A stretch of DNA of 64,000 nucleotides from the IMG/VR virus record IMGVR_UViG_3300027759_003166. The stretch is one strand, 5' to 3'. The position numbers and the translations under genes are program-made. Positions 724 to 14,728 of the stretch are shown here, in pieces. The notes beneath the pieces are model-generated. The model did no database searches. It was not told the DNA's origin and saw nothing but the letters and a program-made list of their open reading frames with translations. The stretch is from a virus (taxonomy: Duplodnaviria > Caudoviricetes). The stretch's first letter is position 1; every line of letters begins with the position of its first letter.

Positions 724-1562
724 AAGTATATGACTGTTTTACATTTTTCAATGAGTTAGATCTATTAGAAGTGCGTTTAAACGAACTTTATAATAGCGTA
801 GATTATTTTGTCATTGCTGAGGCTAATATGAGTCACAGTGGCAAACCCAAAGAATATGTATTAGAACAAAATTGGGAAAGATTTAAACCTTTCCACGATA
901 AGATACGTTATCTTAAGATTGATGACTTTCCTGTAACCAACAATAGTTGGGTACGTGAGAAGTTTCAACGTGATGCTCTTAAGCGTGGAATCACTGATAA
1001 ACAAGCAGATGATTTGATCATAATTAGTGATCTTGACGAAATTCCACGTGGAGATATTATAGAATTGATCAAAGAAGATGAGAACAAATATGAACGTTAT
1101 GTATTATGTGTTCCATTATTTAGATACAAGTTTAATTTCTTAAAATGGCATCACCCTGTGATCAATCAACAAATGATTGTAACTAGGGCTCACGTATTCA
1201 CTAACCCTGAAAAAGAACGTGATTTTACTCATGCCTGGCTACCACCCGCGCCCGATGTTGTTTATCTACATCATGCTGGTTGGCACTTTAGCTACTTAGG
1301 TGATGATAAGAATGCAGTACATAAATTACAAAACTTTGCTCATACAGAACAAAATATACCTGAAATTGTTGATGTGTTCAATATTGATCGAATGATAGAA
1401 GAAAAATGTGGACCAAATCCTGCTGACATTGAAAAGTTTGAATACGTTCAACTTGATGATTATTTTCCTAAATGTGTAGTTGATAATCAAGAAAAATACA
1501 AAGATTTAATTATTCCAAACGCTACTATACCAATCTTTAAATTCTATCCGGAGGACGTATAA
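720..1562 (+). CDS. GT17 family (MGAT3-like beta-1,4-GlcNAc transferase), paralog 1
   Basis: N-terminus VYDCFTFFNELDLLEVRL, then SDLDEIPR and GWHFSY. The start was moved to the ATGA overlap at 720. Confidence 0.8.
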   Translation: MKVYDCFTFFNELDLLEVRLNELYNSVDYFVIAEANMSHSGKPKEYVLEQNWERFKPFHDKIRYLKIDDFPVTNNSWVREKFQRDALKRGITDKQADDLIIISDLDEIPRGDIIELIKEDENKYERYVLCVPLFRYKFNFLKWHHPVINQQMIVTRAHVFTNPEKERDFTHAWLPPAPDVVYLHHAGWHFSYLGDDKNAVHKLQNFAHTEQNIPEIVDVFNIDRMIEEKCGPNPADIEKFEYVQLDDYFPKCVVDNQEKYKDLIIPNATIPIFKFYPEDV

Positions 1563-2446
1563 TGAAAGTTTATGATATGTTTTCATTCTATAATGAATTT
1601 GAAATTTTAGAAATAAGATTAAAAGAATTATGGGATACAGTAGATTATTTTGTATTAGTTGAGTCTAACACTACTTTTACAGGATTACCCAAGGAATACT
1701 TCTTTGAAAATAATAAAGAAAGATTTGCTCCATATTTAGAAAAAATTCGTCATATTAAACTTGATGACTCAATTGAGGAACAACGCAGAGTATTGCCTGG
1801 GCAAATAGATGATACCTGGGTACGTGAAAAATATCAACGTTACATAGCTTATAAAGAGCTATCAGATGTTTCTCCTGAGGATCTTTTGATAATCAGTGAT
1901 TGTGATGAAATACCACGTGCTGACATGATTGAAATGATCAAGGAGGATGAAAACGATTATGATCGTTATATCATATATATAGCTCAATTTAATTACAAAA
2001 TTAACTATATGAAAATACAACATCCTAGTAGCCATCCTGCAATTATAACTGTTAGAGGTCGTGTATTTACAAATCCTCAACAAGAAAGAGAATATTCATT
2101 CTATTGGAACCCAAAACCAAATAATACAATATCAGTACATCATGGCGGCTGGCACTTTACCTATTTTGGTAATGAAGATCATTGTTTGAACAAAATTAAA
2201 AGTTTTGCTCATACTGAACAAAATGTTGGAAAAATTGTTGATGAATATAATATTTCATGGATGATTCGAAACAAATACGGTCATGAAGGAATTAATAGTA
2301 AGCATAACGAAAGATTTGAGTATGTATTAGTTGATGACTATTTTCCTAAATGCATAACAGAAAATTTAGATAAGTGGGATCATATGATCATACCAGATGC
2401 GGTGTTCAGAGTTGATGACCTTTACAGAGAAAATGAAAAATATTAA
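1562..2446 (+). CDS. GT17 family glycosyltransferase, paralog 2
   Basis: VYDMFSFYNEFEILEIRL, SDCDEIPR, GGWHFTY and KIKSFAHTE, all matching paralog 1. Confidence 0.8.
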   Translation: MKVYDMFSFYNEFEILEIRLKELWDTVDYFVLVESNTTFTGLPKEYFFENNKERFAPYLEKIRHIKLDDSIEEQRRVLPGQIDDTWVREKYQRYIAYKELSDVSPEDLLIISDCDEIPRADMIEMIKEDENDYDRYIIYIAQFNYKINYMKIQHPSSHPAIITVRGRVFTNPQQEREYSFYWNPKPNNTISVHHGGWHFTYFGNEDHCLNKIKSFAHTEQNVGKIVDEYNISWMIRNKYGHEGINSKHNERFEYVLVDDYFPKCITENLDKWDHMIIPDAVFRVDDLYRENEKY

Positions 2447-2447
2447 T

Positions 2448-3188
2448 ATGACTAATTTAAGAACACCTCCAACTGCTAAACCCCATAATCCAACATCCGA
2501 TCAAGAAACATCAATTAAATTTGCTGGTGAATGGGATTCTGAACTAGCGGTTAAAATTCAAAATGCATGGTTTAGTTCAATTTCTATGGAATTCAAATTA
2601 CCAGAATGGGTTCGTTATATGGATGGTGCCAGTGGAAAAAAATATAGATATTTTATTAACAACATGATTCAATCCCTGGACGATGCTAGATATTTAGAAA
2701 TTGGGACCTGGGCAGGATCGACTGCATGTTCTGCTCTATATGGAAACAAGGTTAAAACAACCTGTGTTGATAATTGGGCAGAGTTCGGCGGCCCAAAAGA
2801 TTTATTCTTTTCAAATATAGACAAATTAAAATCTCCAGACATTGATTTTTCTTTTATAGAAAATGATTTTAATCTTATAGATTATACATCTATAGGAAAA
2901 TTTAACGTGTATATGTATGATGGAGCTCATTCTGAAGAAAATCAATACAACGGAGTTGCTAGGGTATTACCTGCATTAGATGACACCTTCTTACTGGTTG
3001 TTGATGATTGGAATTGGAATGCTGTTAGATCAGGAACACTTAATGCTATTAACGATAAAAATCTCAGCATAGTATGCAGTATAGAAATTCGAACAATGCA
3101 ACAAGAGGTATGGTGGGCTCCTGATATTTTAGGATCCGACAGCGACTGGCATAATGGATACTTTATAGCATTAATTAAAAAAGGATAA
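2448..3188 (+). CDS. Class I SAM-dependent methyltransferase (Methyltransf_24-like)
   Basis: YLEIGTWAGS motif I, YMYDGAH and VVDDWNW. The start was moved to the ATG after the upstream stop. Confidence 0.75.
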   Translation: MTNLRTPPTAKPHNPTSDQETSIKFAGEWDSELAVKIQNAWFSSISMEFKLPEWVRYMDGASGKKYRYFINNMIQSLDDARYLEIGTWAGSTACSALYGNKVKTTCVDNWAEFGGPKDLFFSNIDKLKSPDIDFSFIENDFNLIDYTSIGKFNVYMYDGAHSEENQYNGVARVLPALDDTFLLVVDDWNWNAVRSGTLNAINDKNLSIVCSIEIRTMQQEVWWAPDILGSDSDWHNGYFIALIKKG

Positions 3189-3190
3189 CA

Positions 3191-3970
3191 ATGACAACAT
3201 TTTCACATTCAGGAACTACAGGTGATACATTTTGTGCCTTAGTAATTCCAAAAATATTTGGCGAAGGAGAAGTATATCTCAAGTTGAATAACCTAGAACA
3301 TGTAATAAACACTAAATTAGGGTGGAGCAATAAAGGAAATCGGCATGAAGGTCGTATGACTGAAAATGATTATGAAGTAATGCGTGAATTAATTTTACAT
3401 CAAAAATACATTACTAAATTTGAAATTTGGAATGGTCAAGGAATTGATTATGAATTAGAAGATGCATACGATCATTTAGAGACAGGATTCTTTCCTAGAA
3501 ATTTTAGCAATCAATATGCATTAGCTGCCGGAATAGATCCTAAGAAGCATGAAAAAGAATTACAAATGCTTCCGTGGTTGGAGTGCCGAGAGCCCCGTAA
3601 ATTTCCTGGAAGACCTATTGTTATACATCGTAGTCCTAATTACCAAGAAGGTAATCCAGTAGATAGCCCACATTGGAGAAAAATTATAGATCGAGGTTTA
3701 GCAGATCAAGCGGTATTTGTAGGCGCTGATAGCGATCACGATTACTTTGAAAATCTTTACAAAATACGTGTACCTTATTATAGAACTCCAGACTGGATGG
3801 AATTAGCCCGTGTAATACAAGGTAGTGAACTTATGATTACTAGCATGGGAGGTCCAAGTGCTTTATGTTTATGTCTTGGAAAAACAATGATGCTAGAACC
3901 TCGCAAAAATGAACCACACGAAAGATTAGAAATCAACTATCCTCTCAGAGTTAATATACAATATTTTTAA
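3191..3970 (+). CDS. Putative GT-B / GT9-like glycosyltransferase
   Basis: N-terminal HSGTTGD, a FVG segment and ELARVIQGSELMIT, resembling heptosyltransferase-like GT9 proteins. Confidence 0.4.
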   Translation: MTTFSHSGTTGDTFCALVIPKIFGEGEVYLKLNNLEHVINTKLGWSNKGNRHEGRMTENDYEVMRELILHQKYITKFEIWNGQGIDYELEDAYDHLETGFFPRNFSNQYALAAGIDPKKHEKELQMLPWLECREPRKFPGRPIVIHRSPNYQEGNPVDSPHWRKIIDRGLADQAVFVGADSDHDYFENLYKIRVPYYRTPDWMELARVIQGSELMITSMGGPSALCLCLGKTMMLEPRKNEPHERLEINYPLRVNIQYF

Positions 3971-3980
3971 AAGGTAAATT

Positions 3981-4646
3981 ATGACAATAGAAATTAAATG
4001 GACAGGTGATTTAAATTCTCCAGATGGAGAAAAATTAATCGATGCCTTTAAACAAGCATATAGAATGAATCATAAATTATCTGATTTTGTATTGAATATG
4101 CGTGGAATGAGCGGTAAAAAATATAGAGTATTAATTAACACATTGATTGAAAACACGTCTGATGTTAGATATTTAGAAATAGGATCTTATAAAGGATCAA
4201 CCGCTTGTGCAGCAATCTATGGCAATGATGCAAAATTATCTTGTATTGATACATTCATATGGAGCTCTAGTCAAGAGCTAAAAGATAACATTGCTCTGGC
4301 TTCAACTAAAAATGTAGATTTTAAATTATTTGAGCAAGATTTTAGAACCATTGACTATTCTAACATTGGAAAATATAATGTATATATGTACGACGGCCCT
4401 CACGATGAGAGAGATCAGTTTGACGGAATTTTAATTGCACAACCAGCTTTGGAAGATAAATTTTTATTAATAGTTGATGATTGGAATGGGTCTCACGTGC
4501 AGAACGGTACAATAAATGCCATGAAATATCTAGGGTTAAATGTGTTAGCAAGCGTGGAGATTTTTTCACCCAACGAACCAATCACAGATGAAAAAAGTGA
4601 TTGGCATTTTGGATATTTCATAGGTTACGTTGAAAAATCTCAGTAA
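3981..4646 (+). CDS. Class I SAM-dependent methyltransferase, paralog of 2448-3188
   Basis: Shares SGKKYR, YLEIG, IGKYNVYMYDG, VDDWN and SDWHxGYFI with 2448-3188. Confidence 0.75.
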   Translation: MTIEIKWTGDLNSPDGEKLIDAFKQAYRMNHKLSDFVLNMRGMSGKKYRVLINTLIENTSDVRYLEIGSYKGSTACAAIYGNDAKLSCIDTFIWSSSQELKDNIALASTKNVDFKLFEQDFRTIDYSNIGKYNVYMYDGPHDERDQFDGILIAQPALEDKFLLIVDDWNGSHVQNGTINAMKYLGLNVLASVEIFSPNEPITDEKSDWHFGYFIGYVEKSQ

Positions 4647-4669
4647 CCAATTCATTAAACTTTTACAGA

Positions 4670-5389
4670 ATGAAAATAGCAATAATAATATGTGGACAGC
4701 CTAGGTTTACTGATGATTTTAAAAACACCTTAACTAATCTTAAAGGTTATACTCATGCCGATTGGTTTTGTTATTTCACAGGCAACAATCAAGGAATCCC
4801 ATCTAATAAACTTCCTTCAGAGTTTTGGAGAGAAATTACTGATACAAAATTAGCAGCAAATACTCTTCAATCTATGTTACCACCGACTAATTTTATTAGA
4901 TCATTTGAATTGTCTGATAGTGACTATATTGAACTACCAAAAGAACCTCTAGAAGTTCCTACGCCTGCTTATAAAATGTGGTATAATTTATTTCAAGTTA
5001 ATCAACTTCGACTTAACTATGAAAAACAAAATAACATTATATACGATATGGTTGTACGCATACGTCCTGATGCAGGGTTAGTAGATGAAGTAGATCTAAA
5101 TAATCTAATGGAACATATTAATCACTCGGTAATAACTCCTATAAACAAAATTGCAGGACACCTTAACCTTAGTCCCGACTCTCCTCAAATGTGTGATTGT
5201 CTTGCTATTGCTTCTCCAGAAAATATGAATATATATTGTGATATGATTCACGACGCTCATAACAATTTCTTTACTCAAACTAGGTATACTTGGCATACAG
5301 AAAGTGCTCATGCATTACATTTAAAAAATCATAATGTTACTATAACACCGTGTAATTTTAAAATATCAATACGCGGTGATGCTAATTAA
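4670..5389 (+). CDS. Conserved glycan-locus protein (MKIAxxxxGxPR...RxRPD family), paralog 1
   Basis: MKIAIIICGQPRF, YDMVVRIRPD and DCLAIA. This family is typical of phage and bacterial polysaccharide loci. Confidence 0.55.
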   Translation: MKIAIIICGQPRFTDDFKNTLTNLKGYTHADWFCYFTGNNQGIPSNKLPSEFWREITDTKLAANTLQSMLPPTNFIRSFELSDSDYIELPKEPLEVPTPAYKMWYNLFQVNQLRLNYEKQNNIIYDMVVRIRPDAGLVDEVDLNNLMEHINHSVITPINKIAGHLNLSPDSPQMCDCLAIASPENMNIYCDMIHDAHNNFFTQTRYTWHTESAHALHLKNHNVTITPCNFKISIRGDAN

Positions 5390-5432
5390 GCATCCAATAA
5401 ATATTCAGATTATTAAATAGAAAGACAATAAA

Positions 5433-6059
5433 ATGCCAAATACAATATACATTGATAGTACATACTGCCCTACAGATTTATGTCTTATTGGATCAGACTG
5501 TAATACCGATAAGGCTCCCTACTCTTTAAACAGTGTTTGTTCAAAAGCACGAAAGGGATATACCGCAGTTTACGAGCTATTATTTTCATCTATGCGAAAC
5601 AAAGAAATTAATTTTTGTGAGATAGGAATAGAGGCTGGCGCATCAGTTCAGATGTGGGAACAATATTTCTCTAAGGCTAATTTATTTGCATTTGAATATG
5701 ATGAGAATAAAATTGAATTATGTAAAAAATTAGCACCTAACACTAATTTTTTAAAAACTGATGTATCAAATGAACAAATCTTACATCAAACATTTAAAGA
5801 TACAGATAAAATGTTTGACATAATTATTGATGATTCAAATCACCATCAACCGGATCAACTTAAAATAATAAAAGTATCTGTTGATTATTTAAAGCCTGGT
5901 GGTATACTAATTATTGAAGATATTTACAGAGAGTATACAGAAGATATTTTTGATTCAGTTATTGGTGATGAGTGGGCATTTAAAGCATTTATTATTTGTG
6001 ATCATCAAAACAGAAGCGGGCATGACAATGATAAAATATGGGTAGGTATTAAAAAATGA
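5433..6059 (+). CDS. Class I SAM-dependent (sugar O-)methyltransferase
   Basis: FCEIGIEAGAS, FDIIIDDSNH and LKPGGILIIEDI. Confidence 0.75.
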   Translation: MPNTIYIDSTYCPTDLCLIGSDCNTDKAPYSLNSVCSKARKGYTAVYELLFSSMRNKEINFCEIGIEAGASVQMWEQYFSKANLFAFEYDENKIELCKKLAPNTNFLKTDVSNEQILHQTFKDTDKMFDIIIDDSNHHQPDQLKIIKVSVDYLKPGGILIIEDIYREYTEDIFDSVIGDEWAFKAFIICDHQNRSGHDNDKIWVGIKK

Positions 6060-6823
6060 AAGTAGCATTGGTAACTGGGGGACTTCCTAGATTCACAGTT
6101 GACTTTGTAAAGTTAATGAATCAATTAAAAGGATTTGACTCTGCTGATATTTACATGACATTATGGTCCACTGACTGGGCGATATCAGCAGAAGAGGCCA
6201 GGGCTAAAATAGAAAAAATATTACCACCTCAATATAATCTAGCTAAAATAACCATCGTTGATCAACCAGAATATGAACTACCACCTCATTCTACAAATTT
6301 GTCACCACCAGTTGATTCAAAATATATAACATGGTGGTATAAGCGTTTATATCTAGGATCTCTTGGACTTTCCTGGGCACATGATCTTATAGATAAAGAA
6401 TACGACGCTGTTGTTGTATTTAGATTAGATGTTTCTGCAGATAGGGAGATTGATCTAAGTACCTATGATTTTTCAAATAAACAATTAATATGTTCTAACA
6501 ATGGACATTCTGGATTTCCAGATTATAAAATCAATGATCAATTAGTGTTTGGTTCTCAGGAATCTATAAAACTTTTATGTGACATGGGAAAAAATGTTAA
6601 AGAATTAGTTCCTTTATCTGATCCACAGTGGTCAAAAACAGATATAATAGATGGATCTGTATGGACCTGGAGCAGAGAGTGTTTAATAGGGTATTACATG
6701 AAACAAGTTGATGTACCGTTGATATATGGTAATTTTAATGTAGTAATGAACTCTCAAGGTAGATCACGATTTACGGATAAACATTTTCATCATCCTGTTT
6801 CAATAGATCCTACAGAAATTTAA
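6056..6823 (+). CDS. Conserved glycan-locus protein, paralog 2
   Basis: MKVALVTGGLPRF, YDAVVVFRLD and NDQLVFG, the same pattern as 4670-5389. Confidence 0.55.
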   Translation: MKVALVTGGLPRFTVDFVKLMNQLKGFDSADIYMTLWSTDWAISAEEARAKIEKILPPQYNLAKITIVDQPEYELPPHSTNLSPPVDSKYITWWYKRLYLGSLGLSWAHDLIDKEYDAVVVFRLDVSADREIDLSTYDFSNKQLICSNNGHSGFPDYKINDQLVFGSQESIKLLCDMGKNVKELVPLSDPQWSKTDIIDGSVWTWSRECLIGYYMKQVDVPLIYGNFNVVMNSQGRSRFTDKHFHHPVSIDPTEI

Positions 6824-6828
6824 AAATT

Positions 6829-7551
6829 ATGAATATATTAATACCTATGGCAGGATTAGGGTCGAGATTTTTGACCAAAGGTTTTCATCAACCTAAACCA
6901 TTAATTGATGTAAACGGTACTCCTATGATTATAAGAGCAATAGAAAGTCTTGGTATCGATAATGCCAGATACTTATTTGTTATATCAAAAAATGAATATT
7001 CAGAAAGTGTTAAAAAAGAAATTTCAAAATATGTAAATTGTAATTTCATTGAAATTAATTATATTACAGAAGGACCTGCCTGTTCTGCATTATTGTTCAA
7101 AGATCAAATTAACAACGATGATGAATTAATTATTGCCAACTGTGATCAAATTATGGAATGGAGTGCAGATTTATTTTTATTAAATGTTCGGCAATACGAT
7201 GGTGCAGTAGTAACCTATCACGAAACAACTGATAAAAATAGTTATGCTAAGGTTAATAAACAAGGTCAGGTTATAGAGATACAAGAAAAAAATGTAATAA
7301 GTAATATATCATTAAACGGAATACATTATTGGAAAAATGGTAGCTACTTTGTTGATAGCGCTCAAGAAATGATCGATGATGATTATAGGGCTCCTAATGG
7401 AGAATTCTATGTTGGACCATCGTACAATTATATGATTAAAAACAGATTAACAGTAGGTATATATCATATACCTAATCAGATGCATCACCCAGTGGGTGTA
7501 CCAGACGATTTAGAAAAATTTATTAAATATGAAAATTCAAAAATTAGATAA
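6829..7551 (+). CDS. Sugar-phosphate nucleotidyltransferase (NTP_transferase family)
   Basis: LIPMAGLGSRF...PKPLI signature, then TEGPA, NCDQ and NGEFYV. Confidence 0.85.
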   Translation: MNILIPMAGLGSRFLTKGFHQPKPLIDVNGTPMIIRAIESLGIDNARYLFVISKNEYSESVKKEISKYVNCNFIEINYITEGPACSALLFKDQINNDDELIIANCDQIMEWSADLFLLNVRQYDGAVVTYHETTDKNSYAKVNKQGQVIEIQEKNVISNISLNGIHYWKNGSYFVDSAQEMIDDDYRAPNGEFYVGPSYNYMIKNRLTVGIYHIPNQMHHPVGVPDDLEKFIKYENSKIR

Positions 7552-7852
7552 CATGTGGAGAGGATGGTTTATTGGCAACTTTGAACCAACTGTATTAAAA
7601 ACTAAAGACTTTGAAGTAGGTATATTAACACACAAGAAAGATGAAGTATGGCCAGAACATTATCATGCCATTGCTACAGAATATAATGTATTAATAAGCG
7701 GGCACATGACAGTATGTGGAGAAGAACTACATTCTGGAGATATTTTTATTATAGAACCCAACGAAATAGCAAGACCTGTGTTCCATGAAGATTGTATAAT
7801 AGTATGTGTAAAAACACCAAGTGTACCAAAGGATAAGTATGAAGTTTTTTAG
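7529..7852 (+). CDS. Cupin (RmlC-like) protein
   Basis: RGWFIGNFEP, HYH...EYNVLISG and GDIFIIEP match the cupin motifs. Confidence 0.75.
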   Translation: MKIQKLDNMWRGWFIGNFEPTVLKTKDFEVGILTHKKDEVWPEHYHAIATEYNVLISGHMTVCGEELHSGDIFIIEPNEIARPVFHEDCIIVCVKTPSVPKDKYEVF

Positions 7853-9032
7853 AAACAGAGAAGAAATAGATATAAACAAATACTTCATAGCAACATATGT
7901 TATGAAATCGTCAACTTCACTTAAAGATGCTGCGTGGAATCTTGCTATAGGTCAAAGTGTAGGAAATCCTAGTGTTCGTAATGAATGGGAAACTGATGAC
8001 TTATTTGAAAATCACAGTTGTATCATTTTAGGTGATGAAAGCTATATGTCCACACAGATCTCGGGTATTGTAGAAATTGCATTTCCTGTAGCAAACATTG
8101 ATTGGGATACAGACGGAATTAGTCAACTTCTTTGCCACCTGATGGGAGGACAAGTTGATATTGATATTATTAAAAAATGTCGTTTGATAAAACTTGAATT
8201 GCCAAACAATGTTACTCAGCATTTTTTAGGTCCTAAATTTGGAATTACAGGTTTTAGACAATTCACAGGACAATACAATAAACCATTATTTGGTGGTATC
8301 ATTAAACCAAAGATTGGAGTTTCTCCAGAAGTATTGCTAGAAATGGTTAAGCAAATGGTCGATGGTGGAGTTGATTTTATTAAAGAAGATGAAATCATGA
8401 GCAATCCCGTATGTGCTCCATTGGAACATAGGGTAGACATGATTGCTAACTATCTAGCCAAACAAAGTCGTAAAGTTGTATTCTGTCACACCATTAATGC
8501 AGATCCACATATTATTATAGACCGTGTTAAGCGTGTACATGAGTTAGGTGGTAATGGAGTTCACGTTAATGTGTTTAGTGGAATTGGTGTGTATAATAGT
8601 ATTCGCAAATTAGATCTACCTTTATATCTACATTATCAAAGTAGCGGAGCGAAATTACTAACTGATGTAAATCACAGGTTTAGTATTAGTTGGCCAGTAA
8701 TGTGCCAGTTAGCAACACTAATGGGTGTTGATACTATACAAACTGGCATGGTTGGAGGATATAGTAATGATGATCCAGTGGAGATTAAAGAATGTTTAGA
8801 AATATTAAGAGCAGGTAATACTGTGCCTGCACTTAGTTGTGGAATGCATCCCGGATTAGTTAATAAGGTCACCGAACTTGCAGGGTTAGATTATTTGGCC
8901 AATGCAGGTGGAGCAGTTCATGGTCACCCTGGCGGTACAGTTGCAGGTGCGCGAGCCATGAGACAAGCAATAGATAAAACGCATAATACAGAATATGATC
9001 AAGCAATTAACAAATGGGGATTAATAATATGA
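7839..9032 (+). CDS. RuBisCO-like protein (form IV, RLP)
   Basis: IKPKIG (K175/K177), GGVDFIKEDE (K201/D203/E204), LSCG and AGGAVHGHP. The R295, H327 and K334 equivalents are replaced, so it is not a true carboxylase. Confidence 0.9.
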   Translation: MKFFRNREEIDINKYFIATYVMKSSTSLKDAAWNLAIGQSVGNPSVRNEWETDDLFENHSCIILGDESYMSTQISGIVEIAFPVANIDWDTDGISQLLCHLMGGQVDIDIIKKCRLIKLELPNNVTQHFLGPKFGITGFRQFTGQYNKPLFGGIIKPKIGVSPEVLLEMVKQMVDGGVDFIKEDEIMSNPVCAPLEHRVDMIANYLAKQSRKVVFCHTINADPHIIIDRVKRVHELGGNGVHVNVFSGIGVYNSIRKLDLPLYLHYQSSGAKLLTDVNHRFSISWPVMCQLATLMGVDTIQTGMVGGYSNDDPVEIKECLEILRAGNTVPALSCGMHPGLVNKVTELAGLDYLANAGGAVHGHPGGTVAGARAMRQAIDKTHNTEYDQAINKWGLII

Positions 9033-9874
9033 GAATTATTGATAATTTCTTATTTCATAATGAGTTTGATCTTTTAGAGATTCGATTAAGTACACATTAT
9101 GATTATGTGGATCAATTTACCATTGTAGAATGCAATCATACATTCACTGGTATACATAAAGGATTTAATCTAATTGAACAAAAAGAAAGATATGCTCCTT
9201 GGTGGGATAAGGTTAACTTAGTACAACCGGATAAGCCGCCTCACAATGATTCCTGGAATGCAGAACATTGGATGCGTAATCATTTCCAAACACAATGGGA
9301 CAACTTAACCAAAGATGATGTTGTTATTATTGCTGACTTAGATGAAATAATTCGACCAGAAGCATTACAATTTATTAGAGAAACGGATTATGATTTTTAT
9401 AAATTAGGAATGCCATTCTTTAATTTAAAATTTAATTATCTAAATTTAGTTCCTCATAATCCGTGGCCATCCGTTAAAGCATTTCGAGGATACTATGTTG
9501 AAGGAATGGATGGTATGAGAAATGTACATAGTGTTCCAGGAGGACGGCAAGTAGATCTACATCACTCAGGATGGCATTTTAGTTACCTCGGAGATGAAGA
9601 ATATTGCAGGAATAAATTACGCAGTTTTTCTCATAGTGAATGGAATCTTCCACATATTACTGATAATTTTAATGTTTCAAAAGCTATAGAAAATGGCCAA
9701 GATATTTTAGCAAGGCCTGGTTTTGTTTTTTGTCCAGTTAAACTTGATAATTATTTTCCAAAATATATTATTGATAATAAAGAAAAATTCAAAAATTACA
9801 TATTACAAGATGGTGAAAAATCTGTATTAGACCATATACCCGGAAACGTACCGCAAGTATTATCCGTATTTTAA
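9029..9874 (+). CDS. GT17 family glycosyltransferase, paralog 3
   Basis: IIDNFLFHNEFDLLEIRL, ADLDEI and SGWHFSYLG. ATGA overlap with the RLP stop. Confidence 0.8.
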   Translation: MRIIDNFLFHNEFDLLEIRLSTHYDYVDQFTIVECNHTFTGIHKGFNLIEQKERYAPWWDKVNLVQPDKPPHNDSWNAEHWMRNHFQTQWDNLTKDDVVIIADLDEIIRPEALQFIRETDYDFYKLGMPFFNLKFNYLNLVPHNPWPSVKAFRGYYVEGMDGMRNVHSVPGGRQVDLHHSGWHFSYLGDEEYCRNKLRSFSHSEWNLPHITDNFNVSKAIENGQDILARPGFVFCPVKLDNYFPKYIIDNKEKFKNYILQDGEKSVLDHIPGNVPQVLSVF

Positions 9875-9896
9875 AAATTTATAAAGGAAAATAATA

Positions 9897-10508
9897 ATGC
9901 AATGGGAACAAGATTTAATTAGAGATATTCGTACAGGTACTGATTATGATAACAAAGATGGCGATGGTGGAATACCACATCCCGATATGAGTCGGTGGCC
10001 TTGGAGAGAAGTTACCGAAGATAACAGAGTTGCCTTTACTGAAAGATTTTTAAAAGTTCGAGATAATTGCCAATCTGTACTTGAAATAGGAGTTTGTAAT
10101 AATCTTGATGAATCAATAACGTATAGATTTTTAGAAAATAAAAAACCAGAAACAATTTATTTTGGCATTGATATTCTAGACAAATCTTTCTTAAATGATA
10201 CTACAAAAAATATATATACAATTCAGGGCTCTAGTAGTCAAGTAGAAGAAAATATAGAAAAAATGAAATCACTAGGTGTTAAAGAATTTGGTTTTATTTT
10301 TATTGATGGGTGGCATAGTATTAATCAATGTTTAATTGATTGGGAATATACTAAATTATTAGCACCTAACGGTATTGTAGGATTTCATGATACTTCTGTA
10401 CATCCAGGGCCTTACCATTTTATAAAGGCATTAAACAAAGATATATGGGAAGTAGAAGAAAATGTATGTACCAGCGACTGGGGTATAGGATTTGCTCGCA
10501 AAAAATAA
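9897..10508 (+). CDS. Class I SAM-dependent methyltransferase
   Basis: VLEIGV, FIFIDGWHS and LAPNGIVGFHD. Confidence 0.7.
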   Translation: MQWEQDLIRDIRTGTDYDNKDGDGGIPHPDMSRWPWREVTEDNRVAFTERFLKVRDNCQSVLEIGVCNNLDESITYRFLENKKPETIYFGIDILDKSFLNDTTKNIYTIQGSSSQVEENIEKMKSLGVKEFGFIFIDGWHSINQCLIDWEYTKLLAPNGIVGFHDTSVHPGPYHFIKALNKDIWEVEENVCTSDWGIGFARKK

Positions 10509-10521
10509 TATTAGATAATCT

Positions 10522-11400
10522 ATGAATATTTTATTATTAGGAGATTCACATACCGATATACTTGTTGGAACCATCCCTAACAGATTTGAAATGGGACAAT
10601 GCCACTCATCGGTATTTACATTGCATAGATTTATGAATCAAGATGATTTAGATCTTTGGTCTAATCTTGAACCATGGTTGCAGAAAAATTCTAACAATAA
10701 ATCTTCATTAATTATCACAGGTGGAGAAATTGATGTAAGAGCACATTTCTGGAGACATATTCCTAGATTATATACTGAACCTAAAGACATAATAAATTAT
10801 ATCTCAAATAAAGCATTAAAATTTTATCAGGCGTTATGTTTGATACAAGAAAAATATCAATTAGAAAAAATTGTTATTTGGGGTGCACCTGTTGCTGGTG
10901 AACGTGCTGACTATAATTATCACGTTCCTTTTGTTGGATCTTCACAAACTAGAAATATATTAATACATTTATGGAATAAATCTTTATTAGAATGTATTAA
11001 TAATGATTCTAAGATTTCTTTTGCAACTGCATATTATAATTTTATTGATACTATTAATTATAACACAACCCCAAACCCTTCGCCAGATGGCGTACATTGG
11101 GATTATGGGCATGGATCATTTGGTCCAATGTGTTGTAATCAATTAATATTCCCTGCATTAAATGGTGGGTCAATGTTAGATGATAATTTTAATATTATGA
11201 AAGATGATCAATTTGGAATTACAGAATCATTTTCAAATGGTATTCAAAAATATGACACCTGGGCACGTACTGACCAACTTACTAGCAATATAGATGAAAG
11301 GACAGTTTTAATTAATAATACTTCGTATTCATGGATAAAAGCTGACCAGCGATCATTATTGCCAGAACAATATAAAGAACTCACAATACAAAAAATATGA
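10522..11400 (+). CDS. SGNH/GDSL-like hydrolase or acyltransferase
   Basis: N-terminal LLLGDSH nucleophile motif, GEID and a C-terminal PDGVH (DxxH). Confidence 0.6.
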   Translation: MNILLLGDSHTDILVGTIPNRFEMGQCHSSVFTLHRFMNQDDLDLWSNLEPWLQKNSNNKSSLIITGGEIDVRAHFWRHIPRLYTEPKDIINYISNKALKFYQALCLIQEKYQLEKIVIWGAPVAGERADYNYHVPFVGSSQTRNILIHLWNKSLLECINNDSKISFATAYYNFIDTINYNTTPNPSPDGVHWDYGHGSFGPMCCNQLIFPALNGGSMLDDNFNIMKDDQFGITESFSNGIQKYDTWARTDQLTSNIDERTVLINNTSYSWIKADQRSLLPEQYKELTIQKI

Positions 11401-12767
11401 ACAAACTTATTATATTTGACCTCGATGGAGTATTGATCGAAAGTAGAGAATTACATTATCAAAGTCTAAATGATGCTTTAAAAAGTATAGACCCTAAATA
11501 TGTCATCTCTCGTGATGAACATTTATCAATTTATGATGGATTAAACACCACACGTAAATTACAGTTATTATCTGAATCAAAACAATTACCCATAGAATAC
11601 CATGATATGGTTTGGCAACGTAAACAATTAGCCACATTTGAATTGATAAAAGAATTTCCTATAGATAAAAAATTAGTAGATATATTTTCAAAACTTAAAT
11701 CTACAGGATATTCAATTGCTGTTGCAAGTAACAGTATTAGGGAAACCGTTAAACTTAGTTTATTAAAAATTGGTGTAATGGAATATGTTGATTACTACGT
11801 TAGTAATCAAGATGTAGTACATCCTAAACCATATCCAGAAATGTATTGGCAATGTATGATAGCAATGAAAGCATTGCCTAAAGATACACTAATTATTGAA
11901 GATAGTCATATTGGTAGACAAGCAGCAATAGATAGCGGTGCTATATTATTGGCTGTAGAAAACTCCTACGATGTAACATGGGAAAAAATTAATTCAAGAT
12001 TACAACATATGAATTCTCAGATGACATCAACTACTATACCTTGGAAGGATAGTAGATTAAATGTATTAGTACCAATGGCCGGTGCAGGAAGTAGATTTGC
12101 TCAACAAGGTTATACATTTCCAAAACCGTTAATTGAAGTTAATGGTAAACCTATGATACAAGTAGTTGTAGAAAATTTAAATATAGAAGCGCATTATATT
12201 TTTATTGTTCAACAAGATCATTATGAAAAATATAATCTTAAATATCTTCTCAATCTTATAGCACCCGGGTGCGATATTGTACAAGTTAATGGTATTACAG
12301 AAGGTGCAGCATGTAGCACATTATTAGCCAAAGATTATATTAATAATGATTCTCCTTTAGTAATGGCCAATAGTGATCAATACGTTGAATGGAACAGCAA
12401 TGAATGTATGTATTCTTTTAGTGCCGACGAGATTGACGGAGGCATAGTTACATTTGAAGCCACACATCCTAAATGGAGTTACGCATTAGTAGGTGATGAC
12501 GGGTTTGTTAAAGAAGTTGCAGAAAAGAAAGTAATTAGTAACGAGGCAACTGTGGGAATTTATTATTGGAAGAAAGGCAGTGACTACGTTAAGTATGCTG
12601 AAGAAATGATTGATAAAAATATCAGAGTCAATAATGAATTTTATGTATGCCCTGTCTTTAATCAAGCCATTGAAGACAATAAGAGAATTAAAATTAAACG
12701 TGTTAATCGTATGTGGGGTATTGGTACTCCCGAAGATCTTGATAATTTTTTAAAGAATCATAAATGA
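11397..12767 (+). CDS. HAD phosphatase fused to a nucleotidyltransferase
   Basis: IIFDLDGVL (HAD motif I), KPYP and IEDS, followed by VPMAGAGSRF...PKPLI, NSDQ and NNEFYV. Confidence 0.85.
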   Translation: MNKLIIFDLDGVLIESRELHYQSLNDALKSIDPKYVISRDEHLSIYDGLNTTRKLQLLSESKQLPIEYHDMVWQRKQLATFELIKEFPIDKKLVDIFSKLKSTGYSIAVASNSIRETVKLSLLKIGVMEYVDYYVSNQDVVHPKPYPEMYWQCMIAMKALPKDTLIIEDSHIGRQAAIDSGAILLAVENSYDVTWEKINSRLQHMNSQMTSTTIPWKDSRLNVLVPMAGAGSRFAQQGYTFPKPLIEVNGKPMIQVVVENLNIEAHYIFIVQQDHYEKYNLKYLLNLIAPGCDIVQVNGITEGAACSTLLAKDYINNDSPLVMANSDQYVEWNSNECMYSFSADEIDGGIVTFEATHPKWSYALVGDDGFVKEVAEKKVISNEATVGIYYWKKGSDYVKYAEEMIDKNIRVNNEFYVCPVFNQAIEDNKRIKIKRVNRMWGIGTPEDLDNFLKNHK

Positions 12768-13519
12768 AAACAGCTTTATTATTATCTGGGCATGCCAGAT
12801 TTTGTGCCGAGTTTGATATGCAAATAGATAACTTAAAGAATAGTCATATAGATTGGTTTGTAGTATTGTGGACCAGACGGTATGGTGATGGATCGGAGAG
12901 AAATGAATTAATGCCTCCTAGTTGGCAAGCAACGACTGCCGAAGAAGCTAGAACTATAATAGAATCTAAACTTCCACCGGGCCATAGACTTGCACACATA
13001 GAATTAGTAGACCCTACGGAATTTCCACCTTTAACCAAACAATATAAACGAATAGACTGTACTGTAGAAAACTTATTTCAACAATATTGGATGTTAAAAA
13101 AGTGTGATCAAGCAAGACTACAATCAGGAAATAATTATGATTTAGTTATTCGATCCAGACCTGATATAGGTATAGATGCTTCCTTGGATCTTGTTCGTGT
13201 GCATAATTTTTTAGAACAAAATCCAAATTATATAATAACTCCTAGTAATCATAGAAATTGTGGATTTAACGATATGTTTGCAATAGGATTACCTAATACA
13301 ATAAAAACTTATTGTGAAGCAGTTGATCATATTGATCATTTTAATCTTAATCTTAATGTACAATTACATTCTGAATTGATGATTTCTACTATATTAGGAT
13401 CGCAAGGTTTGCAGTGGCCAATGACTAATTTTAAAGTTTCGTTAAGAAAAATGGGTACAGGCAGCGATGTTGCTGAGGATAATGATCCGTTTATTCCTTA
13501 TTTTGGAAAGTGGGCTTAA
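12764..13519 (+). CDS. Conserved glycan-locus protein, paralog 3
   Basis: MKTALLLSGHARF, YDLVIRSRPD and NDMFAIG. Confidence 0.55.
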   Translation: MKTALLLSGHARFCAEFDMQIDNLKNSHIDWFVVLWTRRYGDGSERNELMPPSWQATTAEEARTIIESKLPPGHRLAHIELVDPTEFPPLTKQYKRIDCTVENLFQQYWMLKKCDQARLQSGNNYDLVIRSRPDIGIDASLDLVRVHNFLEQNPNYIITPSNHRNCGFNDMFAIGLPNTIKTYCEAVDHIDHFNLNLNVQLHSELMISTILGSQGLQWPMTNFKVSLRKMGTGSDVAEDNDPFIPYFGKWA

Positions 13520-13520
13520 T

Positions 13521-13958
13521 ATGAAAATAATTGCACATAGAGGGCTAGTAAATGGTCCTGACAGTAACCTAGAAAATCTTCCCGGGCAAATACTCTTAAG
13601 TTTGCAAGCAGGATATGATTGTGAAATCGATGTTAGATATATTGATGGTAAATGGATGTTAGGACATGATAATCCAGATTACGAAATACCATTTGAGTTT
13701 TTAGAACAACCGGGTCTTTGGATACACGCCAAGAACCTCAAAGCTCTATATGAGCTAGGTAAAACAAATTTAGTTTACTTCTGGCATCAAGAAGATGATT
13801 TTACATTAACCAGCAACGGTTATATTTGGACCTATCCTGGAAGAATTTTAACAGATAAGAGTATTATGGTTTTGCCTGAATGGGAAGATAAAACATTAAG
13901 CAATGTAAAAGATTGCTATGGTGTTTGTACAGACTTTGTTAATCTATTGCGCCATTAA
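13521..13958 (+). CDS. Glycerophosphodiester phosphodiesterase-like protein
   Basis: IIAHRG, EIDV, LGHD, WIHAKN and GVCTD match the PLC-like/GDPD motifs. Confidence 0.75.
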   Translation: MKIIAHRGLVNGPDSNLENLPGQILLSLQAGYDCEIDVRYIDGKWMLGHDNPDYEIPFEFLEQPGLWIHAKNLKALYELGKTNLVYFWHQEDDFTLTSNGYIWTYPGRILTDKSIMVLPEWEDKTLSNVKDCYGVCTDFVNLLRH

Positions 13959-14591: not shown

Positions 14592-14728
14592 ACAATTCAC
14601 CTTTATATACTACTATTTAGCAATAGAAAAGAGCCTTGCGGCTCTTTATACTGGTTACGAGGGTCCAGCGACACTCTATTTTGTGCCCGATTTAAAAAGA
14701 CTTCCAAAGAAACTTCGGAAGCCAGATA

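What the first reader, a model, noticed from the sequence alone, without database searches (positions are those of the whole stretch)
6829..9032. Phage RuBisCO-like protein coupled to a nucleotidyltransferase and a cupin: candidate new sugar pathway
Seen: the NTP transferase, cupin and RLP overlap in series, and the RLP stop overlaps a GT17 start. The RLP keeps K175, K177, K201, D203, E204, H294, S379 and GG403-404, but R295 is Y, H327 is Q and K334 is Y. Known: form IV RLPs act as enolases or isomerases in methionine salvage, or as (trans/de)carboxylases in apionate, threonate and hamamelose catabolism. Inference: this context is biosynthetic, so the RLP may make or rearrange an unusual (branched or short) sugar phosphate. 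The transferase would then activate it and the glycosyltransferases would install it. That would be a new RLP role and an unusual viral gene.
Basis: partly seen in the sequence, partly recalled or inferred. Interest (0 to 1): 0.82.

Follow-up and report, generated by a model that had tools for sequence, protein, structure and literature searches.

The report
Phage RuBisCO-like enzyme in sugar-activation cassette
A large freshwater phage carries a RuBisCO relative that cannot fix CO2 and is almost always found next to a sugar-activating enzyme in surface-sugar gene clusters of phages, SAR11, Legionella and tiny bacteria and archaea, which points to an untested sugar-building job for this enzyme family.

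Summary
The three genes are real and overlap in series: a nucleotidyltransferase (6829-7551), a 107-aa metal cupin (7529-7852) and a 397-aa RuBisCO-like protein (RLP, best start 7839, end 9032). The RLP's stop overlaps a GT17 start.

- In a 172-row tree the RLP falls in one clade of 80 rows (SH-aLRT 100). That clade is separate from MtnW/YkrW enolases, 3nwr-like RLPs and form III RuBisCO.
- A nucleotidyltransferase lies within 3 kb of the RLP in 14 of 15 viral and 27 of 28 cellular lineages. Natural RLP-nucleotidyltransferase and phosphodiesterase-RLP fusions also exist.

Other frequent partners are a miniature GDPD-like phosphodiesterase (window 13545-13958) and the cupin, which looks like mini phosphomannose isomerases.

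Most residue claims hold. The exception is "H294 kept, R295 to Y", which is probably off by two positions: a family-invariant Gln sits at H294 and Ser at R295.

Phage RLPs of this "form IV-like" clade were published in 2018-19 without a function. I found no paper describing the link to sugar activation. This scan has already noted the same cassette on at least eight other genomes. The chemistry remains inferred.

The parts
6829..7551 (+). Sugar- or polyol-phosphate nucleotidyltransferase, 240 aa, with the N-terminal MAGLGSRF NTP-binding motif.
   Evidence: Pfam NTP_transferase 7.8e-08 and NTP_transf_3 6.5e-07. phrog_3980 1.7e-61. Nearest solved chain is 4evw, an uncharacterised NDP-sugar pyrophosphorylase, 2.8e-15. 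The family lies within 3 kb of the RLP in 14/15 viral and 27/28 cellular lineages. It is fused to the RLP in P0126.
7529..7852 (+). Minimal single-domain metal cupin, 107 aa. Candidate sugar-phosphate aldose-ketose isomerase or tautomerase.
   Evidence: Motif HxH(x)4E(x)6G with H44 and E51 invariant and H46 nearly invariant; the usual fourth His is not conserved. Model pLDDT 96.8. Best solved matches are the Thermococcus mini phosphomannose isomerases 7zvm/7zvy (E 1.7e-5, TM 0.68-0.70, 23% identity), then KdgF. phrog_24762 5.1e-32. Present in 27 of 58 RLP lineages.
7839..9032 (+). RuBisCO-like protein, 397 aa, of the 'form IV-like' clade. An alternative GTG start lies at 7821.
   Evidence: Pfam RuBisCO_large 126.9 bits. 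No NCBIfam equivalog cut-off is reached. Best solved relatives are 4nas and 2oek, about 30% identity. It sits in a clade of 80 rows with SH-aLRT 100. Residue census.
9014..9874 (+). GT17-family glycosyltransferase whose start overlaps the RLP stop.
   Evidence: Glyco_transf_17 5.4e-27. Overlap read directly. GT17 genes also flank the cassette in L001 and in SAR11 locus L115.
9897..10508 (+). Methyltransf_24-like methyltransferase, 203 aa. A frequent cassette member in phages.
   Evidence: Weak Pfam hit, 2.5e-4. The family follows the RLP in 11 lineages, almost all viral.
10522..11400 (+). Unassigned 292-aa protein. Not a conserved cassette member.
   Evidence: No Pfam, NCBIfam or PHROG hit. 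Atlas best score 0.83, which is only a lead. Homologues only in L013, L015 and L041.
11397..12767 (+). Fusion of a beta-phosphoglucomutase-like HAD domain with a second nucleotidyltransferase, 456 aa.
   Evidence: HAD_2 4.2e-25 plus NTP_transferase 1e-09. Beta-phosphoglucomutase family models 3e-22 and 4.4e-19. About 66% nucleotide identity to Synechococcus myophage genes. The same architecture occurs in a complete Pelagibacter chromosome about 6 kb from its RLP.
12764..13519 (+). DUF7796 protein with a GT-A-like fold. One of three paralogues in the island; the others are at 4670-5389 and 6056-6823.
   Evidence: phrog_13607. Atlas structure matches to DUF7796 and glycosyltransferase-containing clusters, TM 0.68-0.77. 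The family is present in 18 RLP lineages.
13545..13958 (+). Miniature GDPD-like phosphodiesterase, about 137 aa. The ORF opens at 13467; homologues start at 13545.
   Evidence: The GDPD signature HR..EN..ExD..HD is invariant or nearly so in 25 members. Model pLDDT 92.7. VIA-align against all PDB cluster representatives is topped by GDPDs: 1o1z Z 8.4 with 131 of 137 residues aligned, and 20 of the top 22 rows are GDPD/PLD enzymes. DPANN loci carry a full-length PF03009 GDPD instead, 63 bits. Fused to the RLP in P0156. Present in 30 lineages, plus 10 with the full-length form, of 58.
1..6823 (+). Upstream part of the same co-directional glycan island: a GT2, two GT17, four methyltransferases, two DUF7796 paralogues and one unassigned ORF (3191-3970).
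   Evidence: G+C 0.30-0.34 with positive GC skew up to about 14 kb; the strand and composition change after that.

Best explanation
Window 6829-9032 is the core of a conserved biosynthetic cassette inside a surface-glycan gene island of an uncultured freshwater T4-like phage.

Shown:
- The RLP belongs to a distinct clade of the RuBisCO superfamily.
- Its members nearly always sit beside, and are sometimes fused to, a sugar/polyol-phosphate nucleotidyltransferase.
- They are often joined by a miniature GDPD-like phosphodiesterase and a small metal cupin.
- The family keeps the Mg2+/carbamate site (K201, D203, E204), K175 and K177, and the proximal phosphate site (S379, G381, G403/404).
- It has lost K334 (always Tyr) and E60, and probably H294 (an invariant Gln).

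Inferred:
- The enzyme cannot carboxylate.
- It still enolises a 2-keto sugar that carries a phosphate, or a nucleoside diphosphate, on the neighbouring carbon. It then re-protonates or rearranges it, acting as an isomerase, epimerase or tautomerase.
- The cupin interconverts the aldose and ketose (or enol and keto) forms.
- The nucleotidyltransferase turns the phosphorylated product into an NDP-linked donor.
- The neighbouring GT17, GT2 or DUF7796 transferases (LicD in Legionella) install it on a glycan.
- The GDPD-like enzyme performs a phosphodiester step that is not yet defined.

In this phage's subclade three residues have changed together: the basic residue at the R295 position, the His at the H327 position and a nearby Asp have become Ser, Gln and Ala. 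This suggests that the far end of its substrate differs from that of most of the family.
For: Monophyly and separation:
- Clade of 80 rows, SH-aLRT 100, holding every cassette RLP from phages, SAR11, Legionella, Nonomuraea, Azospirillum, CPR and DPANN.
- The MtnW group (P0215, 563 bits to 2oek) and the 3nwr-like group (P0248) lie in the other half of the tree.
- No NCBIfam equivalog cut-off is met.

Linkage:
- Nucleotidyltransferase within 6 kb in 53 of 58 lineages.
- Within 3 kb in 14/15 viral and 27/28 cellular lineages that have both flanks.
- On the same strand and within two genes in 12 of the viral and 23 of the cellular lineages.
- Fusions: P0126 (RLP-nucleotidyltransferase, 667 aa, 53% identical to the window RLP) and P0156 (mini-GDPD-RLP).

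Glycan setting in cells:
- GT9, a CMP-sugar synthetase-like gene, SIS isomerase, PfkB kinase and a HAD-nucleotidyltransferase in a complete Pelagibacter chromosome.
- GT17, GT61 and an epimerase in another SAR11 genome.
- LicD next to RLP-nucleotidyltransferase in Legionella nautarum.
- GT2 in Nonomuraea.
- GT2, GT25 and FkbM methyltransferases elsewhere.

Active site:
- Census.
- Ser268, Ala271 and Gln301 co-occur in 9 of 9 members of the window's subclade and nowhere else.

Partners:
- The cupin resembles mini phosphomannose isomerases.
- The GDPD motif and fold are present.

Precedent:
- A nucleotidyltransferase can load an open-chain ketose phosphate, which is then tailored while nucleotide-linked: CDP-6-D-fructose to CDP-6-D-glucitol in C. 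jejuni HS:5 (PMC10918830).

Selection and occurrence:
- More than 120 relatives at 78-86% identity, 118 of them 396-397 aa.
- 35 positions are invariant or nearly so across 79 members.
- The stretch recurs in lake metagenomes of independent studies.
Against: - No substrate, product or activity is known for any member of the clade.
- The cupin (27 of 58 lineages) and the GDPD (40 of 58) are not universal, so the minimal unit is only RLP plus nucleotidyltransferase.
- Two lineages (L038, L055) show no nucleotidyltransferase nearby.
- The H294/R295 register is ambiguous by two residues between two profile alignments.
- Cultured cyanomyophages carry the cupin, mini-GDPD and HAD-nucleotidyltransferase without any RLP. 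The RLP is therefore an optional extra in that module.
- The nucleotide used and the glycan acceptor are unknown.
- Whether the phage modifies the host surface or its own virion is unknown.
Confidence: 0.6

Rival explanations
1. Same cassette, opposite order. The nucleotidyltransferase acts first on a common ketose phosphate. The RLP then tailors the nucleotide-linked open-chain keto-sugar, holding the diphosphate in one of the old RuBisCO phosphate sites.
For: CDP-6-D-fructose is made first and modified afterwards in C. jejuni HS:5. RLP-nucleotidyltransferase fusions exist. Most of the family keeps a basic residue at the R295 position (K 61, R 9 of 79) and His at the H327 position (65 of 79), which together would suit a second anionic group. 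SAR11 type-2 loci have a nucleotidyltransferase on each side of the RLP.
Against: No RuBisCO-fold enzyme is known to act on a nucleotide-linked substrate. The window's own subclade has lost both distal-site residues. Gene order (nucleotidyltransferase, cupin, RLP) says nothing about reaction order.
Confidence: 0.25
2. A methionine-salvage-like trio. The RLP would be a DK-MTP-1-P enolase (MtnW), the HAD domain the phosphatase (MtnX) and the cupin an acireductone dioxygenase (MtnD), recycling methylthioadenosine for the many SAM-dependent methyltransferases in the island.
For: The best solved relatives by sequence are YkrW/MtnW-type proteins 4nas and 2oek. RLP, HAD and cupin folds co-occur, and the island holds several methyltransferases.
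Against: MtnW models score 164 and 137 bits against cut-offs of 409 and 514. The MtnW group lies across a 100-support branch. The clade keeps K177, which MtnW lacks, and has Gln where MtnW has its catalytic Lys. The HAD domain matches beta-phosphoglucomutase models and is fused to a nucleotidyltransferase. No acireductone dioxygenase appears in the cupin's top 50 structural matches. No IF-2B (MtnA-type) gene turned up beside the cassette in the loci surveyed; the one PfkB kinase, in Pelagibacter, sits with heptose/LPS genes.
Confidence: 0.03
3. A catabolic or salvage RLP, like the apionate-pathway decarboxylase or transcarboxylase, that breaks down a host sugar acid. Its place in the glycan island would be incidental.
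For: The OiaX model gives 153.8 bits. D-2-hydroxyacid dehydrogenase genes lie near the cassette in Pelagibacter and Nonomuraea.
Against: The OiaX cut-off is 700 bits. No transporter, no kinase apart from the Pelagibacter PfkB and no regulator typical of catabolic operons recurs near the RLP. The recurring neighbours are nucleotidyltransferases and glycosyltransferases across 58 lineages, with fusions.
Confidence: 0.05
4. The cluster decorates phage DNA or another nucleotide rather than a surface glycan. The RLP would supply the modifying sugar.
For: Large T4-like phages glycosylate DNA.
Against: The same cassette sits in LPS/O-chain-type clusters of free-living bacteria and archaea, next to GT9, a CMP-sugar synthetase-like gene and LicD. 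No DNA-modification gene lies inside 1-13958.
Confidence: 0.05
5. A working CO2-fixing RuBisCO that boosts host carbon fixation.
For: K175, K177, K201, D203 and E204 are all kept, as in true RuBisCO.
Against: K334 is Tyr in 79/79. E60, T65 and W66 are replaced, and H294/R295 are not kept. The form III model scores 178 bits against a cut-off of 497. No phosphoribulokinase, small subunit or AMP-pathway gene was found in the annotated flanks of the loci surveyed.
Confidence: 0.01

Closest known systems
'Form IV-like' RuBisCO-related proteins of phages and Beckwithbacteria (Jaffe, Castelle, Dupont and Banfield, Mol Biol Evol 2019; PMC6389311 / bioRxiv 10.1101/386292)
   Same: RLPs on large Myoviridae-type phage contigs from IMG/VR that group with Beckwithbacteria and stand apart from other RLPs, with only partly conserved catalytic residues. 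Here a Beckwithbacteria protein (L063) and 46 IMG/VR contigs fall in the same 100-support clade.
   Different: That paper left the function open. Its text contains neither 'glycosyl' nor 'nucleotidyl', and it reports no gene context for this clade. The conserved partners, the fusions and the spread to SAR11, Legionella, Actinomycetota and DPANN are not in it. I could not compare with their sequences directly.
MtnW/YkrW 2,3-diketo-5-methylthiopentyl-1-phosphate enolase (PDB 2oek, 2zvi; 4nas-type RLP)
   Same: Nearest solved sequences, about 30% identity. Same fold, the same Mg2+/carbamate triad and K175, and no carboxylation. Its chemistry, enolisation of a keto compound that carries a 1-phosphate, is what I infer here.
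   Different: A separate clade. MtnW lacks K177 and uses a Lys at the N123 position; the cassette clade keeps K177 and has Gln/His there. No methionine-salvage genes were found nearby.
Form III RuBisCO of the archaeal and CPR AMP pathway, including IF-2B isomerase fusions
   Same: Similar sequence distance (2cwx 3.7e-35). A KPK motif identical to true RuBisCO. Pathway partners are encoded next to the enzyme or fused to it (P0161 and P0175 are isomerase-RuBisCO fusions).
   Different: Form III keeps K334, H294, R295, H327 and E60 and fixes CO2. The cassette RLP has Tyr at K334 and different partners.
Apionate-pathway RLPs (3-oxo-isoapionate-4-phosphate decarboxylase OiaX, NCBIfam NF042437)
   Same: RLPs that act on a phosphorylated keto sugar acid, which shows how far the fold's chemistry can stretch.
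   Different: Catabolic. The model scores 154 bits against a cut-off of 700, and these enzymes have no nucleotidyltransferase partner.
CDP-6-D-fructose / CDP-6-D-glucitol pathway of Campylobacter jejuni HS:5 (PMC10918830)
   Same: It works like the inferred cassette: a nucleotidyltransferase loads an open-chain ketose phosphate, a tailoring enzyme changes the keto-sugar, and the product enters a capsule.
   Different: The tailoring enzyme there is an NADPH reductase, not an RLP. No homology between the enzymes was tested.
GDP-mannose route (cupin-type phosphomannose isomerase, phosphomutase, guanylyltransferase)
   Same: The cupin resembles Thermococcus mini phosphomannose isomerases. The HAD domain is phosphomutase-like and is fused to a nucleotidyltransferase.
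   Different: No RLP or GDPD takes part in that route. Sequence identity to the isomerases is only 23%.

Membership tests
RuBisCO large-subunit superfamily (Pfam PF00016) | Match to the catalytic-domain model above its gathering score | tested here: met
   126.9 bits against a cut-off of 30.1, residues 141-388 of the 403-aa ORF.
RuBisCO large-subunit superfamily (Pfam PF00016) | Mg2+/carbamate triad K201-D203-E204, plus K175 | tested here: met
   K182, D184, E185 and K156 are invariant in 79/79 clade members.
Bona fide RuBisCO (forms I-III) | Loop-6 Lys334, together with E60, H294, R295 and H327 | tested here: not met
   K334 is Tyr in 79/79. E60 is Gly. H294/R295 are Gln/Ser in the RuBisCO-profile register. 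H327 is Gln in the window.
Bona fide RuBisCO (forms I-III) | NCBIfam equivalog score (type III TIGR03326; form II NF010002) | tested here: not met
   178.1 bits against 497.45, and 100.4 against 489.
MtnW/YkrW DK-MTP-1-P enolase | NCBIfam equivalog score (NF007095, TIGR03332) | tested here: not met
   164.4 bits against 409, and 137.5 against 513.6.
MtnW/YkrW DK-MTP-1-P enolase | Groups with characterised enolases in a tree | tested here: not met
   The MtnW group (P0215 and kin, 563 bits to 2oek) lies in the other half of the tree, across branches with SH-aLRT 100.
MtnW/YkrW DK-MTP-1-P enolase | Catalytic Lys at the N123 position (Lys98 of the Geobacillus enzyme, recalled from the literature) and loss of K177 | tested here: not met
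   Gln (62) or His (13) at that position, and K177 kept in 79/79.
DeepYkrW MTRu-1-P isomerase RLPs (R. rubrum / R. palustris RLP2 type) | Closest sequence kinship to characterised members | tested here: inconclusive
   2qyg scores 77 bits against 134 for 4nas. No member of that group was among the 150 nearest representatives, so none is in the tree.
OiaX 3-oxo-isoapionate-4-phosphate decarboxylase | NCBIfam equivalog score NF042437 | tested here: not met
   153.8 bits against 700.
'Form IV-like' phage/Beckwithbacteria RLP clade (Jaffe et al.) | Phage-borne RLPs that group with Beckwithbacteria and apart from the other RLP clades | tested here: met
   Beckwithbacteria L063 and IMG/VR loci share the 100-support clade with the window.
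GDPD (PF03009), for the partner at 13545-13958 | HR..EN..ExD..HD catalytic signature on a PLC-like barrel | tested here: met
   The motif is invariant or nearly so in 25 members. GDPD chains fill the top of the VIA-align list, Z 8.4-7.0, with about 131 of 137 residues aligned.
GDPD (PF03009), for the partner at 13545-13958 | Match to the Pfam model above its cut-off, and a full barrel of about 230-250 aa | tested here: not met
   No Pfam hit even at E 5. The protein is only about 137 aa. Full-length PF03009 proteins replace it in DPANN loci.
Cupin-type phosphomannose isomerase, for the partner at 7529-7852 | Metal-binding cupin fold close to characterised mini isomerases | tested here: inconclusive
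   Top Foldseek matches are 7zvm/7zvy (E 1.7e-5, TM about 0.7, 23% identity). KdgF, dioxygenases and ectoine synthase follow closely. The fold does not fix the function.

The most novel reading that the evidence does not exclude
This clade could be the first RuBisCO-fold enzyme that works in biosynthesis on a nucleotide-linked, open-chain keto-sugar. It would use the ancestral bisphosphate-binding sites to hold an NDP-ketose and would turn a common ketose into a rare epimer or rearranged sugar donor. If so, one of the most abundant bacterial groups in the ocean (SAR11), Legionella, CPR/DPANN cells and hundreds of large phages would build a still unidentified surface-glycan residue with a RuBisCO relative.
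Probability: 0.25. Interest if true: 0.85.

Novelty: new variant of a known kind. Interest (0 to 1): 0.62.

Why it matters
All characterised RuBisCO-like proteins work in salvage or catabolism: methionine salvage and sugar-acid breakdown. A clade tied to a nucleotidyltransferase in surface-glycan clusters would give the superfamily its first biosynthetic role. It would also answer the question left open in 2019 of what phage RLPs do.

The cassette is small, at three or four soluble enzymes. It occurs in cultured bacteria (Legionella nautarum, Nonomuraea rosea, Azospirillum oleiclasticum), so it can be tested directly. Its product would be an undescribed component of the surface glycans of SAR11 and of large aquatic phages or their infected hosts. 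Those surfaces are where phage recognition is decided.

Tried and rejected
- tblastn of the RLP against 50,697 deposited phage genomes found nothing. The nearest held virus record, G001, a 51-kb fragment, also has no RLP. Neither result shows absence from relatives.
- Foldseek of the mini-GDPD model against the PDB gave no match at E 0.001 or better, only weak Cas1 and HisF rows. The exhaustive VIA-align search was needed.
- Complex prediction on an RLP dimer plus the mini-GDPD gave no verdict: score 0.00 against a mark of 0.32, and the controls were not run. This says nothing about binding.
- Literature searches for RLP with nucleotidyltransferase, with Pelagibacter hypervariable regions, and with LPS/O-antigen found no paper linking them.
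- RNA evidence is too weak to claim expression. A lake metatranscriptome library (X18) holds three short contigs identical to 8607-8758, 10081-10272 and 10539-10723. A viral RNA-seq library (X14) holds diverged pieces. Both are contigs from RNA libraries that may contain DNA.
- The Atlas search of the 292-aa ORF 10522-11400 gave only sub-threshold rows.
- I could not place DeepYkrW or IV-Photo RLPs in the tree, because none was among the 150 nearest representatives and no named reference sequences could be fetched.
- MAFFT on the mixed 172-row set and HMMER pairwise alignments disagreed on the beta-5 register. I settled on the profile-profile result against RuBisCO, but a structure is needed.
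- I considered and rejected a methionine-salvage trio, a catabolic RLP, DNA modification and true carboxylation (see the rival explanations).


Full report
WHAT IS THERE.
Window 1-13958 is a co-directional, A+T-rich island (G+C 0.30-0.34) of tightly packed or overlapping genes. In order, with Pfam, NCBIfam and PHROG calls:
- a GT2
- two GT17 glycosyltransferases
- methyltransferases and DUF7796 paralogues
- the nucleotidyltransferase (6829-7551)
- the cupin (7529-7852)
- the RLP (7839-9032)
- a third GT17 (9014-9874)
- a Methyltransf_24-like protein (9897-10508)
- an unassigned ORF (10522-11400)
- a HAD-nucleotidyltransferase fusion (11397-12767)
- another DUF7796 protein (12764-13519)
- a small protein at 13467/13545-13958

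The nucleotidyltransferase and cupin share 23 nt. The RLP's homologue-supported ATG at 7839, with AAGGA six bases upstream, lies inside the cupin's last codons. The RLP stop at 9030-9032 overlaps the GT17 frame, either as ATG 9014 or as an ATGA overlap at 9029.

The rest of the window looks like a large phage. It holds ribonucleotide reductase, exonucleases, a homing endonuclease, an endolysin-like gene and a weak virion-protein hit, plus DnaK, ClpX-like and porin genes. The nearest held record is an IMG/VR virus. The stretch recurs in freshwater and lake metagenomes of independent studies. Earlier notes of this scan call the genome a freshwater T4-like giant phage. I did not test the T4 kinship myself.

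It is a clear RuBisCO large-subunit homologue (126.9 bits). It reaches no NCBIfam equivalog cut-off:

| Model | Score (bits) | Cut-off (bits) |
|---|---|---|
| Form III | 178 | 497 |
| MtnW (two models) | 164 and 137 | 409 and 514 |
| OiaX | 154 | 700 |
| Form II | 100 | 489 |

The nearest solved chains are 4nas and 2oek at about 30% identity, followed closely by form III enzymes.

I built a residue census over 79 members of its clade.
- K175, K177, K201, D203, E204, S379, G381 and G403 are kept in all 79, and G404 in 75.
- K334 is Tyr in all 79.
- G380 is Cys in 77.
- H327 is Gln in the window but His in 65 of 79.

Three lines of evidence agree: profile-profile alignment against a RuBisCO group, the gap-free match of the deepest clade member P0137 to other RLPs, and a conserved Thr ten residues on. 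They put window His265 at position 292, the invariant Gln267 at H294 and Ser268 at R295. In either register His265 varies across the family (H 48, F 28, M 2, Y 1), so it cannot be the family's catalytic residue.

In the RuBisCO register the R295 position is Lys or Arg in 70 of 79 members. It is Ser only in the window's phage subclade, where Ser268, Ala271 and Gln301 always occur together (9 of 9). In RuBisCO, R295 and H327 both hold the distal phosphate. The joint change is therefore what one would expect if this subclade's substrate has a different far end.

The tree had 172 rows: one RLP per lineage from 46 IMG/VR loci and 50 cellular loci, the 150 nearest representatives of a 1.8-billion-protein library, and a true RuBisCO from Azospirillum.

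All cassette RLPs form one clade of 80 rows (SH-aLRT 100, quick IQ-TREE search). The other half of the tree holds:
- the MtnW/YkrW enolases (P0215, 563 bits to 2oek; P0187, about 300 bits)
- the 3nwr-like RLPs
- form III-like proteins, including isomerase fusions

So the RLP does not group with MtnW. DeepYkrW isomerases are further away still by sequence score (2qyg 77 bits) and were not near enough to enter the tree. That part of the test is therefore less direct.

The window sits in an all-viral subclade of 12 rows (support 99). In a polytomy with it are two groups of SAR11-related proteins: one with a Crocinitomicaceae and an archaeal MAG protein, the other with a viral locus (L036).

GENE CONTEXT: THE SECOND REFUTATION TEST.
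I called ORFs within 6 kb of the RLP in all loci and clustered them. I counted lineages rather than loci, giving 58 lineages at under 85% RLP identity.

| Neighbour family | Lineages (of 58) |
|---|---|
| Nucleotidyltransferase | 53 |
| 13545-13958 family (mini-GDPD) | 30 |
| Full-length relative of that family | 10 more |
| Cupin | 27 |
| DUF7796 | 18 |
| SDR epimerase | 15 |
| Methyltransf_24-like protein | 11 |

I then restricted the count to loci with at least 3 kb on both sides. A nucleotidyltransferase lies within 3 kb in 14 of 15 viral and 27 of 28 cellular lineages. One apparent miss, L091, was an ORF-calling artefact (compare). The carriers include:
- a complete Pelagibacter chromosome
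- other SAR11 cells
- Beckwithbacteria and Saccharibacteria
- Woese-, Nano- and Micrarchaeota
- Verrucomicrobia and Bacteroidota
- cultured Legionella nautarum, L. drozanskii, L. maceachernii, Nonomuraea rosea and Azospirillum oleiclasticum

Two natural fusions tighten the link. P0126 is RLP-nucleotidyltransferase (667 aa, PF00016 plus PF00483). P0156 is the small partner fused in front of an RLP.

Annotated cellular neighbourhoods are glycan clusters:
- Pelagibacter: PfkB kinase, SIS isomerase, HAD-nucleotidyltransferase, GT9, a 2-hydroxyacid dehydrogenase and a CMP-sugar synthetase-like gene.
- Another SAR11 genome: GT17, GT61 and an epimerase.
- Legionella nautarum: a LicD phospho-alcohol transferase directly beside RLP-nucleotidyltransferase.
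- Nonomuraea: GT2 and a dehydrogenase on an integrase-rich island.

THE PARTNERS.
The small protein at 13545-13958 carries the HR..EN..ExD..HD signature of glycerophosphodiester phosphodiesterases (the motif is from my own knowledge of the family). All positions are invariant or nearly so in 25 members.
- Its model (pLDDT 92.7) finds nothing by Foldseek.
- The exhaustive structural search is headed by GDPDs: 1o1z at Z 8.4 with 131 of 137 residues aligned, and 20 of the top 22 rows are GDPD/PLD enzymes.
- DPANN loci carry a full-length PF03009 protein in its place.
- It is therefore a cut-down GDPD-like enzyme. Pfam itself does not recognise it.

The cupin keeps the HxH(x)4E(x)6G motif and models at pLDDT 96.8. 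It is closest to the roughly 105-aa phosphomannose isomerases of Thermococcus (TM about 0.7, 23% identity), then KdgF. This suggests an aldose-ketose or enol-keto interconversion but does not prove one.

The HAD domain of the fusion matches beta-phosphoglucomutase-type models.

Cultured cyanomyophages (S-CAM9, Bellamy, SynMITS9220M01, S-SM2) have the cupin, the mini-GDPD and HAD/nucleotidyltransferase genes in similar clusters, with kinases, an aldolase and a phosphoheptose isomerase, but no RLP. The RLP is thus an add-on to a wider phage sugar-activation module.

HOW IT MOST LIKELY WORKS.
Shown:
- clade identity
- a conserved metal/carbamate and proximal phosphate site
- loss of the residues needed for carboxylation
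- near-obligate pairing with a nucleotidyltransferase
- a glycan-cluster setting

Inferred:
- The RLP enolises a 2-keto sugar bearing a phosphate (or NDP) on the adjacent carbon. It re-protonates or rearranges it, as MtnW and the MTRu-1-P isomerases do with their substrates.
- The cupin equilibrates aldose/ketose or enol/keto forms.
- The nucleotidyltransferase makes the NDP-linked donor.
- GT17, GT2, DUF7796 or LicD-type enzymes install the product.

The reaction order is open. The C. jejuni CDP-6-D-fructose route shows that a ketose phosphate can be nucleotidylated first and tailored afterwards. The Lys/Arg and His at the distal-site positions in most of the family would fit a second anionic group.

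The role of the GDPD-like enzyme is the least clear. Together with LicD in Legionella, it hints that the unit may end up phosphodiester-linked.

I put 0.6 on the general reading and 0.25 on the nucleotide-first variant. Only a few per cent go to methionine salvage, catabolism, DNA modification or true carboxylation, for the reasons given under the rival explanations.

NOVELTY.
The existence of phage RLPs of this clade is published (Jaffe et al., PMC6389311). The GOS study had already seen unplaced RuBisCO groups (PMC1821046). Neither paper gives a gene context or a function for them. My searches found no paper linking an RLP to a nucleotidyltransferase or to glycan synthesis.

This scan has reported the same cassette at least eight times on other genomes. 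I re-derived its main claims independently here.
- the corrected H294/R295 register
- the family-wide residue census
- the coupled Ser/Ala/Gln change in this phage's subclade
- the LicD neighbour in Legionella

Noticed in passing
window 21018-22919 (-), 31306-32538 (-): The phage encodes a full-length DnaK, about 68% identical to bacterial DnaK on tblastn, and a ClpX-like AAA+ protein with the ClpX zinc finger. A relative's locus (L001) carries a Cpn10 gene near its cassette.
   Followed up: partly
window 34998-35885 (-): A Gram-negative porin gene (Porin_4 2.3e-19, Porin_1 2.4e-07) inside the phage genome. This is an unusual auxiliary gene and a hint that the host is Gram-negative.
   Followed up: no
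window 60732-63998 (-), runs off the window: A protein of more than 1,088 aa combines GT1, GT2 and FkbM methyltransferase domains. It marks a second glycan-related locus at the far end of the window.
   Followed up: no
window 49238-50974 (-): A 578-aa protein with a pectate-lyase-like beta-helix (Pect-lyase_RHGA_epim 4.1e-11). It is probably a tail-spike or depolymerase that acts on a host polysaccharide.
   Followed up: no
P0191 (representative library): A 583-aa protein fuses an N-terminal TIR domain (TIR_2 3.3e-13) to a complete RuBisCO-like protein. It lies outside the cassette clade, next to form III-like rows, in an architecture reminiscent of defence proteins.
   Followed up: no
L050, L051, L052 (Synechococcus phages SynMITS9220M01, S-CAM9, Bellamy): Cultured cyanomyophages carry homologues of the cupin, the mini-GDPD and HAD/nucleotidyltransferase genes in clusters with a kinase, an aldolase and a phosphoheptose isomerase, but no RLP. 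These are RLP-less versions of the module and could serve as experimental comparators.
   Followed up: partly
L113 (Nonomuraea rosea, BAABDQ010000069): The mini-GDPD, RLP, cupin, nucleotidyltransferase and GT2 cassette sits among several integrase and transposase genes. This suggests that it moves as a mobile island in Actinomycetota.
   Followed up: no
window 13944-14600 (-): A 218-aa class-I glutamine amidotransferase / BPL_N-like protein lies convergent with, and abuts, the end of the glycan island. Whether it belongs to the pathway is unknown.
   Followed up: no
window 4670-5389, 6056-6823, 12764-13519 (+): Three diverged paralogues of one DUF7796 / phrog_13607 family, with a GT-A-like fold by Atlas structure match, lie in one island. 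The same family recurs beside the RLP in SAR11 and DPANN loci.
   Followed up: partly
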